A stretch of 62,642 nt of DNA, the filler included, from Actinomycetota bacterium (lineage in GTDB: Bacteria; Actinomycetota; Acidimicrobiia; IMCC26256; VFJJ01), in the NCBI GenBank assembly GCA_009886115.1. It is 3 parts of 3 records of this genome, joined end to end, with 100 filler letters (N's around TTAATTAATTAA, not from the genome) between each part and the next. Parts side by side here need not be neighbours in the genome. Positions count along the whole stretch, not along the records: positions 1 to 27,841 come from VFJJ01000188.1; 2 more parts are not named here. One strand, written 5' to 3'. Shown one piece after another: positions 1 through 6,000 of the stretch. The position numbers were made by a program. How positions within the stretch are numbered: position 1 is the stretch's first letter; the number at the start of each line of letters is the position of its first letter.

Positions 1-3000
1 AATCAGGCCTCGGTCGAGGGCGAGAATGTGCCCCCCTGCCGCCCGGGAACCATGCTACACATGATTGGCGAGAAGCTTCCATAAGGGCTCTTCTTACGAG
101 AAGCTAGATATTTCTTCTACCACATGTCACCCTTCCAATATGCCGAAGTCGAACCGGACCACACGAGTGGTACATCAAGGGCCGAGCATCCACGACGGAG
201 TCATACCAGTAGGTGACCGGCGTTCCACCATTGTCGGTCGTTGCGGTCCGGCTCGGGTTTCGACCCGCGGTCGTGTTCGCTCCACACCCGCCGGTCCCCG
301 CGGCGTGTAGGTGAGGTGGCCACACGGGGGTCGACCGGCCCGGCCTACGATCGGGCCGTGGGTCTCCTGGTGCTGGTGTTCGTCGTGGTCCCGATCGCCG
401 AGCTGTTCGTGCTCGTCCGGGTGGGCGGCGAGATCGGCGTGCTCAACACCATCGGGCTGCTCATCCTGATCTCGGTCGTGGGCGCCTGGCTCGTCAAACG
501 GGAGGGCATGGGACTGCTGGCCCGGATGCAGGCCCAACTCGGCGCCGGACGCATGCCCACCAACGAGCTGATCGACGGGTTCCTGATCATGTTCGCCGGT
601 GCGCTCCTACTCACGCCGGGGTTCCTCACCGACCTGACGGCGATCCTGCTCCTGCTGCCTCCGGTGCGCGCGGGGGTGCGGACGGCGCTGAAACGACGGT
701 TCTCGAGGCGTCTTCCACCCGACGTGATCGACGTCGGCTGACGGGCGGCCCCTCGTCTGCGACGTCCTCCGGGTGCGGCGCGGGTCGCCGCCACGTGACG
801 TCGGGCCGAGCCCGATGGGCGAGCACGAGCACCAACGAACCGACGAAGGCGCTCAGGACCGACCCGGCGAGCACGCCCAGCTTGGCCTGGGCGAGCAGCA
901 GCGGCGCCTCGTCGAAGGCCAGGATGGCCACGAACAGCGCCACCGTGAACCCGACGCCACCCAGCGCCGCCGCCCCGACGACGTGCACGGTACCGACACC
1001 GTGGGGGAGCCGTCCGACACGAAAGCGCACCGCCAACAACGTGGCCGCGGTGATGCCGACCGTCTTGCCGACGAGCAGCCCCAGCATGATCCCCCAGGTC
1101 ACGGAGTCGCCGAAGCCGTCTCGCAGCGCCTGACCGGTGATCTCCACCCCAGCGTTGGCGACGGCGAACAGTGGCACGATCACGAAGCTCGTCCACGGCA
1201 GGAGGCGATGCTCGAGCACGGGCATCACCCGACGGTCGCGGATCGGGTGCACCGGGGTCAACAATCCGATCACCACACCGGCGATCGCCGGCTCGACCCC
1301 GGCGCGCACCATGCAGTACCAGGCCGCGACCCCCGCAGGCAGGTAGGCAGCGATCAGGTGGACGTGCCGGCGCTGCATGACCACGATGAGCCCGAAGCAG
1401 ACCCCCGCGCCCAGCAGCCACCACACGGCGACGGACGATGCGTAGAACACGGCGATCACGACGATGCCGCCGATGTCGTCGGCAACTGCCAGGGTCAACA
1501 GGAAGATCCGCAGCCCCGACGGCACCCGCCGGCCCAGCAGCACGAGCACACCGGTGGCGAACGCGATGTCGGTGGCCACGGGCACGCCCCAACCCCGTCC
1601 GGCGTCGCCGCCTGCTCCGTTCATCGCCAGGTAGACGAGCGCGGGCACCACCATCCCGCCCAACGCGGCCACCACGGGGAGCGCGGCCGTCCGGCGGTCG
1701 CGCAGCTCTCCGGTCATCAGCTCACGCTTGATCTCGAGCCCCACCACGAAGAAGAACAGGGTCATCAGACCCTCGTTGATCCAGCCGTGGACGCTGAGCT
1801 CGACGGCCCACGAGCCCGAGCCCAGCGCCAGCACGTGGTCGAAGACGTGGTGGTAGCTGGTCGAGGTGTTCACCCAGACCAGCGCCACAGCCACCGCCAC
1901 GAGCATCACGGCTCCGCCGGCAGCTTCGGTGCGCAGGAGCTCGATGACCGGCGCCGCCACACGGTGACGGCTCGAAGCCGGGGTGAGCGAGGGGTCGCGG
2001 CGGCTCATCGAGGCCGACCATACGACCCTCGATCGGCCGACGGTTACCCGATTGTTTCGGCCGCGTGACCGAGAGCTGGCGGCAGCTCGGTCGGCACTAC
2101 GCCTTGAGGCCCGCAGCCGGCGTGAGGTCGAGGGCTGTGGTGGGCCAGCGCTTGCGGCTCTTGATCGAGAGCTTGTGCATGAGTGCGATGGCTTCGGGGT
2201 CGTCGTCGCCCGGGCGGGTCACGACCCAGCCGTCGGTGACGGCCCGCGCGAGCAGCTCGCGACCGATGTCGGTGCGGACGATCGTGAGGGTCCAGTCGTT
2301 GAACTTGCCGATGCCGCCGGTGGAGATGTCGGCGTGCTCGGCAGCGAAGTCGGGGCACTGCATGCACCCTTCACGCGTCCACTGGTGGCATTCCTTCAGG
2401 GGCACCTCGTGGTAGCCGCCGTCGTGGGTCCAGATCTGGAACACACCCTTGATGTTGACCTTCTTGATCATGGCCCGGCTGAGGCCGTACTTGGCCTCGA
2501 AGAGCTCGTCGAAGATGGCGTCGTCGAACGTCTTGGAGCACAGCAGGCCGATGTTCAAGGTGAAGCGTCGGGCGACCTTGCCGGCCTTACGCACCTTCAG
2601 CGTGGGGACCATCGACGACTGGCAGCTCATGCCGACGAGGGCGATGCGCTCGGCGCCACCCTCGATGGCCTGGGGGTAGGCCATGGGGTTGGCCGAGTAC
2701 GTGTAGCGCGAGCCGGCCGAGCGGAGCACATCGTCGCGATTCCAGGCCACGCCGGGGTGGGCCTTCCATCCCGAGCCGTCGCCTTCGAGGTACGAGACGA
2801 GCGAAGCGTCGATCATGTCGTGCTCGAGCGCATAGATGAGCAGCGCCGAGACGAGACCGCCGTCCTGGCCCATGGCGTGGATGGCGTCGTCGGAGGCCCG
2901 GGCCAGGACGATGTCCTTGAAGATGCCTGACACTTCCTGGGGCTCCCTGACCCGGCCGAAGAGGTACTGGTCGATCTCGGGCTCCCACGACCGGAACCTC

Positions 3001-6000
3001 GGGCAGGCCCGGGTGCAGGAGGTGCAGCCCCTGTCGCCGTGGCCGCAACCGCCGAGGCCGCCCTCCTCCTCGAGGTGGAACGGCTGGTACTTGCCGAACT
3101 CGTCGGTGTATCCGAGGACGTCGTGCGGGCAGGCGATCACACAGCCCGAGCAGCCGGTGCAGAGGCCGCTCGTGACCACCTCGTCGAAGAGGTGCTTCCA
3201 GTGGAACTTCTCCGGAGGCATCGGGCCCACACTCCCCCTCGGCCGCCCGGCGACGACCAGTCGGGGAAGTGTGGCAGCCAGGCCGCCATCCAAACGAGTC
3301 GCCGGGTCTCGACGCCGTCAGGACGCGGTACCCTCCGACCATGGAGCCCACCTGAGCGCGCTGATCGCCCACGGGAGCGGCTGGGACGAGGCCCTGGTCG
3401 TCCTGGTGCCGTTGCTGGTCATCGGCGTGCTCGGCTACGTCACGAGCCGCCGTCGCCGAGGCGACACGGCCGACGACTGAGCGGTGGCAATCGAGAGAGG
3501 CCGTCAGACGCGACGACGGCCCCGGACGCGGCGTGCGCGTGACGGGGCCGTCGTGGCAGCGGAGGGGGTGGGATTTGAACCCACGGTAGGTTGCCCTACA
3601 ACGGTTTTCGAGACCGTCCGAGTCGGCCGCTTTCGTACCCCTCCTGGCGGGGAGGGAGTGTATCGGGACTCCACCCTCCAGCGTTTTCCGAAAGAACCGC
3701 GAGGACCGTGACGGGTTCAGGGATCGGCGCGACGCGCGGCGAAGAAGCTGCGCAGGAGGGCGCCGCACTCGTCGGCCCGGACACCGCGAACCACGGCCGT
3801 CTCGTGGTTGAGCCGCGGGTCGGCCGCGAGGTTGTAGAGCGAGCCGCAGGCTCCGGCCTTCGGGTCACCGGCCCCGAAGACCAGCGTCGGAACCCGGGCG
3901 TTGAGGACGGCCCCCGCGCACATCGGGCACGGTTCGAGGGTCACGACCAGCACATATCCGTCGAGGCGCCATGAACCACGAACGAGCGCAGCGTCGCGGA
4001 GCGCCAGGATCTCGGCGTGCGCCGTCGGATCGCCGGTGAGCTCGCGCTCGTTGTGACGCCGGGCGACGATCTCGCCACTCTCGCCGTCGACGACGACCGC
4101 TCCAACCGGGACGTCGCCATGGGCGAGGGCCGAAACCGCCTCGTCGAGCGCGATCGCCATCCAGGCATCGTGGTCAGCGTTCATGAGCCGTCCCGGATGT
4201 TCGCGTTCCCGTGCGTTCGCGTCGGGTACCGAGCACCCACGAGGCGGGCGCCGAAGAGCCGGCGCCCGCCTCGTGAGCCGTCGGTGGTGCGGAGGGAGTG
4301 GGATTTGAACCCACGGTAGGTTGCCCTACACACGCACTCCAGGCGTGCCGATTCGGCCGCTTTCGTATCCCTCCCGAAGCCGGCTCATCGTAGCCCCACG
4401 GGGCGTCCCGGCCTGGAGGGTTGGGCCCGGGGACGCGCACGACGCCGGCAGCTGCTGTCGGGGAGCCAGGCGACCCGCGGCACACGGGAGACCCTGCGGA
4501 GAGCTGCTGCCTCCCGGCCCTGACTCGGTTGGCAGGATCCCGTTGCGCGAGACCCGGCTCCCCGACACCGGCTGCCGGCGTCGTGCCCGCCAGCGTACCA
4601 GCTCCCGGACGTGGTCCTCGCGGCGCACACGTGGCACGCTTGCAGGGTCCGTCGGCGTTCGGGGTGTCATGTTCCAGTCGCTGTACCGCAAGTACCGCTC
4701 CCAGACCTTCACCGAGCTCGTCGGTCAGGAGCACGTCACGCTCGCGCTCCGCAACGCGGTGCGCGAAGGTCGTGTCGGGCACGCCTACCTGTTCACGGGC
4801 CCGCGGGGCACGGGCAAGACCTCGACGGCCCGGATCCTGGCCAAGGCGCTCAACTGCGAGCAGCTCGGCGCCGACGGCGAGCCGTGCAACACCTGTGCCA
4901 GCTGCACCTCGATCACGGCCGGCAACTCGATGGACGTCATGGAGCTCGACGCCGCGTCGAACAACGGCGTCAACGAGATGCGCGAGCTGCTGGGCCGGGT
5001 GGCGTACCGCAGCGCTGGCGGACGGTGGAAGGTGTACATCGTCGACGAGGTCCACATGTTGTCGACCGCGGCCTCGAATGCCCTGCTCAAGACCCTCGAA
5101 GAACCCCCCGAGCACGTGAAGTTCGTGCTGGCGACCACCGATCCGCACAAGGTCCTGCCCACGATCAGGTCGCGGACCCAGCAGTTCGAGTTCGGGCTGA
5201 TCTCCACGCCCGATCTGGCCGAGCACCTGGCCCGGATCTGCCTCGCCGAGGGCGTCGAGACCGACGCCGAAGCCCTGCTCCTCGTGGCTCGACGGGGCGC
5301 CGGGTCGGCACGCGACGCCCTCTCGCTCCTCGACCAGGCGCTCGCCCACGGTGACGGCCACCTCGTCACGACCGAGGTGCGCGAGCTGTTCGAGAGCACG
5401 ACGTTCGACCGGCAGGCATCGTTGCTCGACGCCATCGGGGCCGAGGACGCCGCCGGCGTGATCATGTCGGTGGAAGGGATCCTGGCGACGGGTGTCGACG
5501 CTCGGGCCCTGGCCGACGACCTGCTGCGCTACCTGCGCGACATGTACGTGCTCGCGGCGTCTCGGGGAGCCGTCACCGTCGACCGGGTACCCGAGGAGCG
5601 CGACCGGCTCCGGGCCCAGGGCGAGCTGCTCGGCGCGTCGACCGTCCAGCGGTGCATCGAGACCCTCGGCGTCACCGTCACCGACATGGTGCGGGCACCC
5701 GACCCCCGGCTCGTGCTCGAGGTGGCGCTGGTACGGCTCTCGCGCCGCGAGCTCGGGACCCAGGTCGAGGTGCTGCTCGAGCGGATCGAGCGACTGGAGC
5801 GGACGGTCGACGAGTTGCGCCGGGGTCGCGGTCGCCCGGCCGAGACCGAGGATGCGGGGGCATCCCCGAGCGGGGCGTCTCCGGCGGCGACGTCAGCGAC
5901 GTCAGCGGCGGCAGCGGCGGCAGCGGCGGCAGCGGCGTCGTCGTCGTCGGGCGCAGAGGCTGCGCCCCGGGCCACACCCAGCGCAGCGAAAGCGGCGCTC

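What a model noticed while it worked through the whole genome (the two positions that open the first line are those of the whole stretch)
2097..3221. FpoF-type F420H2 dehydrogenase subunit and an 11-subunit complex I lacking NuoEFG: candidate bacterial F420H2:quinone ox [...]
g01433 has the FpoF/FqoF layout (N-terminal 2x[4Fe-4S] plus FrhB F420/FAD domain) and is strongly conserved in Acidimicrobiia, which also carry a second complex I without NuoEFG (here C54:37618-48173). With 99 LLM-family enzymes and F420 synthesis in the genome, the pair is a candidate route for respiring F420H2 in an aerobic bacterium.
Evidence so far: NCBIfam FpoF E 1e-33 over residues 14-333, below cut-off; FrhB E 5e-51; cysteines invariant in 28 orthologues at 54-77% identity. 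In 33 of 61 class genomes. The nuoABCDHIJKL(MN) operon without E, F, G is seen in 20 of 20 loci checked and its NuoD in 59 of 61 genomes; NuoJ's best Swiss-Prot hit is FpoJ. Searches 180, 187, 188 (listings) showed no report for this group.
(Added by a program. Inside this text positions count along the whole contig: they may not be those of the stretch shown here. "Call 12" and the like, gene names such as g00115 and contig names such as C1 are that model's own, and its searches are not shown. The text may have been shortened before it was handed on; [...] marks where a part breaks off. The agent that wrote the report below was given it as the finding of a first reader that could run no searches.)

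Follow-up and report, generated by a model that had tools for sequence, protein, structure and literature searches.

The report
F420–ferredoxin electron bridge in actinobacteria
A conserved iron-sulfur flavoprotein of little-studied actinobacteria, built like archaeal enzymes that use the cofactor F420, most likely passes electrons between F420 and ferredoxin; that it serves as the missing input part of a second respiratory complex remains possible but less likely.

Summary
The gene (2097-3221, minus strand, 374 aa) is real: an N-terminal 2x[4Fe-4S] domain plus an FrhB-type FAD/F420 domain. The 11-subunit complex I without NuoEFG is also real (C54). The link between them is weak. The layout is not specific to FpoF (116 bits, cut-off 475); the closest solved structure is the F420-reducing zeta subunit of an archaeal CO dehydrogenase. 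In 201 class genomes the headless NuoD occurs in 96 of 104 with the gene and 91 of 97 without. One family keeps the gene intact without the complex (5 of 5). None of 156 loci holds a nuo gene. The gene tracks Fno (97 of 104 against 2 of 97), no Fgd was found, and homologues sit near ferredoxin, korAB and F420-synthesis genes. Best reading (0.5): a soluble F420:ferredoxin oxidoreductase that, with Fno, links the NADPH and ferredoxin pools and feeds the headless complex only through ferredoxin. A direct Fpo-like head stays possible (0.25): seven genomes keep gene and complex without KorA, and archaeal fpoF also lies apart from its operon. The scan noted related loci before on other DNA.

The parts
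2097..3221 (-). Gene for the 374-aa FrhB-family Fe-S flavoprotein (P0001)
   Evidence: Translation; NCBIfam; Pfam; AlphaFold2 model, mean pLDDT 93.7
2994..3182 (-). N-terminal ferredoxin domain, two predicted [4Fe-4S] clusters (C21, C24, C27, C31, C59, C66, C69, C73)
   Evidence: Seven cysteines invariant and C59 in at least 90% of 75 homologues; net charge of residues 8-95 is -5
2685..2909 (-). FrhB_N region with the FAD-pyrophosphate-binding helix start (Q119-D120-G121-G122) and R172-Y173
   Evidence: PF04422 residues 105-179; alignment to FrhB 3ZFS; roles from PMC3591093 passages
2205..2651 (-). FrhB_C region with the third cluster (C200, C228, C286, C289) and the F420-site elements K258-G259 and G303-I304
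   Evidence: PF04432; mapping to FrhB C104/134/192/195, 163-IGKGK and S209-V210; invariance
3232..3240 (-). Purine-rich ribosome-binding-like stretch upstream of the ATG
   Evidence: Read from the sequence; many orthologues start at the same methionine
626..1960 (-). nhaA downstream on the same strand; a frequent neighbour in the own order (11 of 30 loci), with no functional link shown
   Evidence: NCBIfam NhaA over cut-off; neighbourhood clustering
3559..4374 (-). tRNA-Ser(CGA), tadA, tRNA-Ser(GGA) upstream; context only, not conserved beside the gene
   Evidence: ARAGORN; NCBIfam TadA; neighbourhoods

Best explanation
The protein is a soluble, reversible F420:ferredoxin oxidoreductase. FAD exchanges a hydride with F420, and three [4Fe-4S] clusters pass single electrons to or from a ferredoxin. 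Together with Fno (NADPH:F420 oxidoreductase) it forms a two-step NADPH-F420-ferredoxin bridge. It can fill the F420H2 pool for the roughly 100 LLM enzymes from ferredoxin reduced by KorAB, or reduce ferredoxin from NADPH/F420H2 where KorAB is missing. The headless complex I is most likely a ferredoxin:menaquinone oxidoreductase that this protein feeds only through ferredoxin. Shown: fold, cofactor ligands, distribution and gene neighbours. Inferred: F420 as substrate (strong), ferredoxin as partner (moderate), direction of flow (open).
For: (1) Fold: best Foldseek match is 8RIU zeta, the F420-reducing subunit of an archaeal CO dehydrogenase (TM 0.83), then FwdI 8RJA (0.77), Fsr (0.72-0.73), FrhB (0.66-0.67), HCAR (0.61). 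The layout is a general F420/one-electron adaptor (PMC11493965 and PMC10229431 passages). (2) Precedent: soluble FpoF of Methanosarcina mazei has ferredoxin:F420 oxidoreductase activity (PMC9012536 and PMC4652020 passages). (3) Fno in 97 of 104 class genomes with the gene and 2 of 97 without; in other classes 37 of 45 against 8 of 35. Fgd over cut-off in 0 of 201 and not in G000 (87 candidates scored, best 74 bits). (4) Independence from the complex: f28 (5 of 5 genomes, 97-99% complete, two genera) has one NuoD and one NuoH of the full type followed by nuoE/F, yet keeps the gene at 59-69% identity with 108 of 124 conserved positions intact in all five. The complex persists in 91 of 97 genomes without the gene. 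(5) Of 156 loci, 0 hold a nuo gene, 39 the 7Fe ferredoxin FdxA, 13 a 2Fe-2S ferredoxin, 29 an ErpA-type gene, 8 cofC and 12 korA. (6) All 27 sampled genomes of f18/f21/f25/f26/f27/f41, which lack the gene and Fno, have KorA, while 7 of 30 gene-bearing genomes have none: the gene or KorA could each supply reduced ferredoxin. (7) A single-cluster ferredoxin is present in 59 of 60 class genomes.
Against: No activity was measured. The Fno correlation rests largely on one deep split of the class, and kin are not independent; 7 orthologue genomes lack an Fno match. The neighbouring FdxA mostly lies on the opposite strand and is not found over cut-off in any of 201 genomes of this class, so the partner here must be another ferredoxin. 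F420H2 to a low-potential ferredoxin is uphill (about -340 against -400 mV or lower; recalled). In other classes 43 of 45 gene-bearing genomes have the headless-type NuoD against 6 of 35 without, a tighter match than Fno gives there. The seven KorA-less genomes fit a direct head equally well. The absence of an FNR in G000 was checked only with recalled motifs.
Confidence: 0.5

Rival explanations
1. [quoted passage not shown] The acidic ferredoxin domain docks on NuoI, giving a proton-pumping F420H2:menaquinone oxidoreductase; with Fno this would respire NADPH. It may be a part-time head with a second soluble role, as proposed for M. mazei FpoF.
For: FpoF layout. In Methanosarcina acetivorans fpoF also lies away from the fpo operon (PMC12621877 passage), so non-adjacency does not refute it. 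Headless-type NuoD in 43 of 45 gene-bearing genomes of other classes and 96 of 104 in the class. Seven genomes (G020, G044, G144, G008, G034, G002, G019) keep gene and complex with no KorA-type match. Headless NuoI has a basic loop, and a Lys-rich C-terminal tail in most gene-bearing genomes that is missing in 11 of 13 gene-less ones; the ferredoxin domain is acidic. This class lacks FdxA and G000 lacks flavodoxin.
Against: f28 keeps the gene fully conserved without the complex; G096 and G143 also show one NuoD (assembly gaps possible). The complex is kept without the gene in 91 of 97 class genomes, and in G030 and G104 even without CofD. The NuoI tail follows phylogeny: present in gene-less G030 and G104, absent in gene-bearing G078, short in G006 and G012. 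Fpo models fit the headless subunits no better than the full ones (FpoI 47.7 against 66.0 bits; FpoD 340.9 against 337.2). The genome has a full NuoEF 2.8 kb upstream and three more NuoF-like genes. 0 of 156 loci show linkage.
Confidence: 0.25
2. Dedicated F420-reducing module of KorAB (2-oxoacid:F420 oxidoreductase), docking its ferredoxin domain on the enzyme as zeta docks on CO dehydrogenase.
For: korA-korB directly precede the orthologue in G012 and lie one gene away in G006. A related clade forms operons with korA(B) (10 loci). All five f28 genomes have KorA. Best structural match is zeta. FrhB paralogues beside pyruvate:ferredoxin oxidoreductase are described in ANME (PMC9012536 passage).
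Against: 7 of 30 gene-bearing genomes have no KorA-type match, among them G019 (1 contig) and G008 (2 contigs). The korAB-operon clade (9 rows, SH-aLRT 100) is separate from the clade of this gene (39 rows, 95) in the quick tree. Only 2 orthologue loci are beside korAB.
Confidence: 0.1
3. Not an F420 redox enzyme but a ferredoxin-driven reductase of a small molecule (like plant HCAR), or a helper in F420 maturation.
For: HCAR shares the fold (TM 0.61). The gene lies inside F420-synthesis clusters in G221 and G276 and beside cofC in 8 loci. Only one of the two lysines of the FrhB IGKGK turn is kept.
Against: F420 enzymes match better than HCAR (26-32% against 18% identity). CofD is present without the gene in 91 of 97 genomes, so F420 synthesis does not need it. 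G276 has an FbiB with a match to the C-terminal nitroreductase domain as well as the gene. The gene and CofD are both missing in G030 and G104 and both present in G044 and G144 of the same genus.
Confidence: 0.08
4. It docks on another membrane partner, such as the 2x[4Fe-4S] ferredoxin encoded in the cytochrome bc cluster (C54:490-912).
For: G000 has such a ferredoxin between a membrane protein and cytochrome b, an unassigned cytoplasmic electron port.
Against: No linkage seen in the loci read; its distribution was not tested.
Confidence: 0.07

Closest known systems
Zeta subunit of the F420-reducing CO dehydrogenase (PDB 8RIU) and FwdI (8RJA) of Ca. Ethanoperedens thermophilum
   Same: N-terminal 2x[4Fe-4S] domain plus FAD/[4Fe-4S] F420-reductase domain, similar length; best Foldseek matches, TM 0.83 and 0.77; phmmer E 3.5e-43 and 2.1e-37.
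   Different: Those are fixed subunits of a larger oxidising enzyme in anaerobic archaea. This gene stands alone, at 26-31% identity, in bacteria with an aerobic-type respiratory chain.
FpoF/FqoF of Methanosarcinales and Archaeoglobus
   Same: Same domain layout; encoded apart from the complex in M. acetivorans; soluble FpoF acts as ferredoxin:F420 oxidoreductase.
   Different: 116.5 bits against a cut-off of 475; none of 39 near full-length homologues passes (best 196.6). The headless complex is of a bacterial Nuo type by NCBIfam. The two are lost independently.
FrhB, the F420-binding subunit of the F420-reducing hydrogenase
   Same: Highest family score (194.6 bits); cluster cysteines and FAD/F420-site elements conserved.
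   Different: Extra ferredoxin domain; no hydrogenase subunits beside it in the loci read; below the FrhB cut-offs (269 and 331.5).
11-subunit complex I of bacteria
   Same: The C54 operon has exactly these subunits; such complexes are reported in Actinobacteria, with no designated partner found (PMC3144371 abstract and passages). An FpoF-like input was already hypothesised for Dehalococcoidia (PMC4959651 passage).
   Different: Here it sits 2.8 kb from a full 14-subunit operon (33-51% identity between the sets) in an F420-rich genome without FdxA.
Fno and Fgd, the known F420-reducing enzymes of actinobacteria
   Same: Fno is present and co-distributed.
   Different: These are direct hydride transferases without Fe-S clusters. 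In the review passages I saw, Fpo, Fqo and Fsr are listed only for archaea (PMC8498797).

Membership tests
FrhB/FdhB F420-binding family | FrhB_N and FrhB_C domains over the Pfam cut-offs | tested here: met
   69.5/22 and 103.8/23.3 bits
FrhB/FdhB F420-binding family | Four-cysteine cluster next to FAD | tested here: met
   C200, C228, C286, C289 align with FrhB C104/134/192/195 and are invariant in 75 sequences
FrhB/FdhB F420-binding family | FAD- and F420-site elements (helix start, K75-Y76, IGKGK turn, small residues at 209-210) | tested here: met
   QDGG, R172-Y173, K258-G259 (second lysine replaced by V260), G303-I304
FrhB/FdhB F420-binding family | Measured F420 turnover | not testable with these tools
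   Needs purified protein
FpoF/FqoF | N-terminal 2x[4Fe-4S] domain fused to the FrhB domain | tested here: met
   also met by zeta, FwdI and Fsr, so not diagnostic
FpoF/FqoF | Score over the curated FpoF cut-off | tested here: not met
   116.5 of 475 (NF040616) and 113.2 of 444 (NF006808)
FpoF/FqoF | Branches with archaeal FpoF/FqoF | not tested
   No tool returned an authentic FpoF or FqoF sequence; the tree lacks them
FpoF/FqoF | Occurs with a headless complex I | tested here: inconclusive
   96 of 104 against a background of 91 of 97 in the class; 43 of 45 against 6 of 35 in other classes; f28 0 of 5
FpoF/FqoF | F420H2:quinone activity and proton pumping with the complex | not testable with these tools
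   Needs membranes or purified complex
Fpo/Fqo complex (for the C54 operon) | Subunits closer to Fpo than to Nuo models | tested here: not met
   Fpo models rank low for J, I, C and D and fit the full complex about as well; K and L likewise
11-subunit complex I | nuoABCDHIJKLMN without E, F, G | tested here: met
   G000 C54:37618-48173; 40 of 40 class loci for A-J; in other classes 10 of 16 loci, while in 6 of 16 NuoD lies apart from the rest
2-oxoacid:F420 oxidoreductase operon clade | Co-encoded with korAB and member of that clade | tested here: not met
   Gene on C59, korAB on C69; separate clades in the quick tree

The most novel reading that the evidence does not exclude
Deep-branching Actinomycetota respire F420H2: this protein docks on the second, headless complex I and makes a proton-pumping F420H2:menaquinone oxidoreductase, so far shown only in archaea. 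With Fno it would let aerobic soil and aquatic bacteria burn NADPH in the respiratory chain, and it would name the missing input of the actinobacterial 11-subunit complex.
Probability: 0.25. Interest if true: 0.8.

Novelty: new variant of a known kind. Interest (0 to 1): 0.55.

Why it matters
Under the best reading, a single-copy, strongly conserved gene gives abundant but mostly uncultured actinobacteria a link between F420 and ferredoxin. In the review passages I saw, flavin/Fe-S F420 enzymes of this type are listed only for archaea. It would explain how genomes with about 100 LLM enzymes and no Fgd supply F420H2, or how those without KorAB reduce ferredoxin. It also offers a one-subunit enzyme to test for F420 recycling. 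Under the less likely reading it would be the first bacterial F420H2-driven proton pump. Both are testable with one purified protein.

Tried and rejected
Complex prediction of the protein (residues 1-365, alignment A3) with headless NuoI (alignment A4): score 0.00 in both runs, verdict 'no answer'; neither for nor against binding. NuoI Lys-rich tail as a docking mark: follows phylogeny, with exceptions both ways. Relaxed conservation in f28 as a sign of a lost docking face: not seen; only 2 of 124 positions changed in most of the five, both conservative. Complementary distribution with Fgd: no Fgd over cut-off in the class (only 10 candidates scored per genome there, all 87 in G000). The phosphomutase/DUF3090/SCO1664 trio and nhaA as functional partners: treated as inherited gene order. 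Role as dehydro-F420 reductase: unlikely, since G276 has an FbiB with the C-terminal domain and F420 genes occur without the gene. FNR search in G000: recalled motifs only; no adrenodoxin-reductase-type hit and two proteins that look like oxygenase reductases; weak. Expression: four RNA runs hold part of the stretch; X7 has a 460-base contig identical to the 5' part but also covers other places, and contigs cannot show transcription; runs with small shares were not used. Promoter/terminator scan of 1900-3720: none. Tree: only the quick search finished, midpoint-rooted, with several long branches and no FpoF/FqoF. Literature: Acidimicrobiia + F420 + FrhB gave 0 papers; the FpoI-extension search gave 0; the listings showed no report on this gene in Actinomycetota. 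The library lacks most subscription papers, and I read no supplements.

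
Full report
1. The observation. Window 2097-3221 (minus strand) is an open frame of 374 residues on contig C59 of the own genome G000. Contigs of run X5 cover it at about 99% identity with no gap in the gene. Pfam FrhB_N and FrhB_C pass their cut-offs, with Fer4 hits below cut-off at the N-terminus. NCBIfam ranks FrhB (194.6 bits) above FpoF (116.5, cut-off 475), and no model is passed. It is the only FrhB_C gene in the genome. In 75 homologues, seven of eight ferredoxin cysteines and all four FrhB-cluster cysteines are invariant. The second complex I at C54:37618-48173 has nuoABCDHIJKLMN and no E, F or G. 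A full operon with nuoE and nuoF (nuoG read from the sequence, not scanned) ends 2.8 kb upstream, and the two sets are 33-51% identical. fbiC, cofC, cofD and cofE pass their cut-offs, and the LLM domain gives 102 matches.

2. What the protein is. The AlphaFold2 model (pLDDT 93.7) matches best the zeta subunit of the F420-reducing CO dehydrogenase 8RIU (TM 0.83) and FwdI 8RJA (0.77), then Fsr, FrhB and, more weakly, plant HCAR (0.61). The residues named for FrhB in PMC3591093 (passages) map well: the four cluster cysteines, K75-Y76 to R172-Y173, the IGKGK turn to K258-G259 (second lysine lost), S209-V210 to G303-I304. Zeta, FwdI and the N-terminal half of Fsr share the 'FpoF layout' (PMC11493965 and PMC10229431 passages), so the layout marks an F420/one-electron adaptor, not a complex I head. 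None of the 39 near full-length homologues that I picked from the best 150 hits passes the FpoF cut-off. I could not place it against authentic FpoF or FqoF in a tree.

3. Distribution. An orthologue (about 50-77% identity, one copy) occurs in 104 of 201 class genomes: one search gave 107, from which I dropped two weak hits and one paralogue; five are broken at contig ends or in pieces. It is not confined to Acidimicrobiia. In a phylum sample 179 of 401 genomes match at E 1e-15 or better, many at 49-57% identity and some being distant paralogues (the tally includes 12 unpublished genomes). The quick tree puts the actinomycetotal copies and a Chloroflexota pair in one clade (39 rows, SH-aLRT 95), apart from a clade encoded with korAB (9 rows, 100).

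4. The link to the headless complex. Within the class there is no association: headless-type NuoD in 96 of 104 genomes with the gene (97 with a truncated copy in G071) and 91 of 97 without. Family f28 (five genomes, 97-99% complete) has a single NuoD and NuoH of the full type (G159 also has a distant Hyf-like set) but keeps the gene, with 108 of 124 conserved positions intact in all five. G030 and G104 keep the complex but lack both the gene and CofD, while G044 and G144 of the same genus have all three. No nuo subunit lies in any of 156 loci around homologues (1.37 Mb, flanks 1.5-7 kb, some genomes counted twice). Fpo models fit the headless subunits no better than the full ones, and FpoJ ranks last for the headless NuoJ. 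Against this: in 80 genomes of other classes that I picked by hand, the headless-type NuoD is in 43 of 45 with the gene and 6 of 35 without (10 of 16 operons checked were intact and headless, 6 had NuoD apart). In M. acetivorans fpoF also lies outside the fpo operon (PMC12621877 passage). Headless NuoI has a basic loop and a Lys-rich tail in most gene-bearing genomes, though the tail follows phylogeny. Seven genomes keep gene and complex without any KorA-type match.

5. What it does travel with. CofD: 103 of 104 and 42 of 45, on a high background in the class (91 of 97) and a lower one outside it (12 of 35). Fno: 97 of 104 against 2 of 97, and 37 of 45 against 8 of 35. Fgd: 0 of 201 over cut-off. 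Neighbours in the 156 loci: FdxA 39 (all outside this class, mostly convergent), a 2Fe-2S ferredoxin 13, ErpA-type 29, cofC 8, korA 12, of which two are orthologue loci (G012, G006). In G221 and G276 the gene abuts fbiC and faces away from cofD-cofE; in G203 it lies near FdxA and Fno. The 80 loci are the best 80 of 593 candidates and many are close kin. This class lacks FdxA (0 of 201), and G000 lacks flavodoxin, but single-cluster ferredoxins occur in 59 of 60 genomes, seven in G000, one of them at a conserved place beside the proteasome ATPase gene (neighbours named by recall). All 27 sampled genomes of the families that lack the gene and Fno have KorA. I take those families to be the UBA5794 and Actinomarina groups from genome size (a guess); UBA5794 is reported to use KorAB instead of 2-oxoglutarate dehydrogenase (PMC12008989 passage). 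G000 has both Kgd and KorAB.

6. Mechanism. The simplest model that covers all of this is a soluble F420:ferredoxin oxidoreductase working with Fno. Ferredoxin reduced by KorAB can fill the F420H2 and NADPH pools; where KorAB is lost, NADPH and F420H2 can reduce ferredoxin. The headless complex draws on the ferredoxin pool, so it survives loss of the gene where KorAB remains, and the gene survives loss of the complex in f28. Soluble FpoF of M. mazei has this activity (PMC9012536 and PMC4652020 passages). F420H2 could thus still reach the chain, indirectly. G030 and G104 (complex, but no gene, CofD, Fno or KorA match) are not explained; other ferredoxin-reducing enzymes were not searched across genomes. 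I give this model 0.5, a direct head 0.25, a KorAB module 0.1, a non-F420 role 0.08 and another membrane partner 0.07.

7. Novelty. The protein family and the 11-subunit complex in Actinobacteria are known (PMC3144371 abstract and passages), and an FpoF-like head was hypothesised for Dehalococcoidia (PMC4959651 passage). The review passages I saw list Fpo, Fqo and Fsr only for archaea, and Fno and Fgd as F420-reducing enzymes of actinobacteria (PMC8498797). Searches (listings) showed no report on this gene in Actinomycetota; the library lacks most subscription papers and I read no supplements. Earlier scan notes describe the korAB-linked relative in Dehalococcoidia and the neighbouring gene trio in another genome. 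I rate it a new variant of a known kind, interest 0.55.

Noticed in passing
L223:7382-13160 (G211), L224:6355-12089 (G239), L218-L222, L048:5704-8687 (G029), L049:5609-8595 (G155): A distant paralogue (about 28% identity) lies directly behind a NirA/Sir-type siroheme reductase. In G211 the order is cofD-cofC-(gene)-cofE-cysH-sir-FrhB-like-(gene)-sat-cysC; the pair is seen in 5 of 5 f53 genomes checked, and beside cysG genes in two f28 genomes. It looks like a two-gene, F420H2-driven assimilatory sulfite reductase, a split analogue of archaeal Fsr in bacteria.
   Followed up: partly
L250, about 63-1862 (-) (G257:C22): A complex I operon A-B-C-D-H whose NuoI is fused to a NuoF-like domain in one frame of about 600 residues: a different built-in head.
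   Followed up: no
Class-wide; G000:C27:11905-12135: The actinobacterial 7Fe ferredoxin FdxA is not found over cut-off in 201 class genomes; a single-cluster ferredoxin at a conserved place beside the proteasome ATPase gene is nearly universal instead.
   Followed up: partly
L225:490-912 (G000:C54): A 2x[4Fe-4S] ferredoxin gene inside the cytochrome bc cluster, ahead of an ExtP-like cytochrome b and a Rieske protein.
   Followed up: no
L005:7221-8741 (C204) and L006:2053-3408 (C115): Two stand-alone NuoF-like genes with no called NuoE or NuoG beside them; possible other inputs to the headless complex.
   Followed up: no
L234, L236, L238, L239, L241-L243, L246, L247, L249: In other classes the headless NuoI carries a long C-terminal extension with one to three copies of a short helical module, present with and without the gene.
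   Followed up: no
G030, G104 (genus g7): These keep the headless complex but show no match for the gene, CofD, Fno or KorA; their electron donor is unexplained.
   Followed up: no
L053, L124, L127, L128, L131, L134, L136-L138, L144: A separate FrhB+ferredoxin clade forms operons with korA(B) across several phyla, matching an earlier scan note.
   Followed up: partly
window 27842-27941 and 58913-59012: Two pairs of 44-N runs, each around 12 bases, join contigs C59, C60 and C100; the window is a scaffold.
   Followed up: yes
window 3559-4374: tadA sits between two tRNA-Ser genes (CGA and GGA) just upstream of the gene.
   Followed up: no
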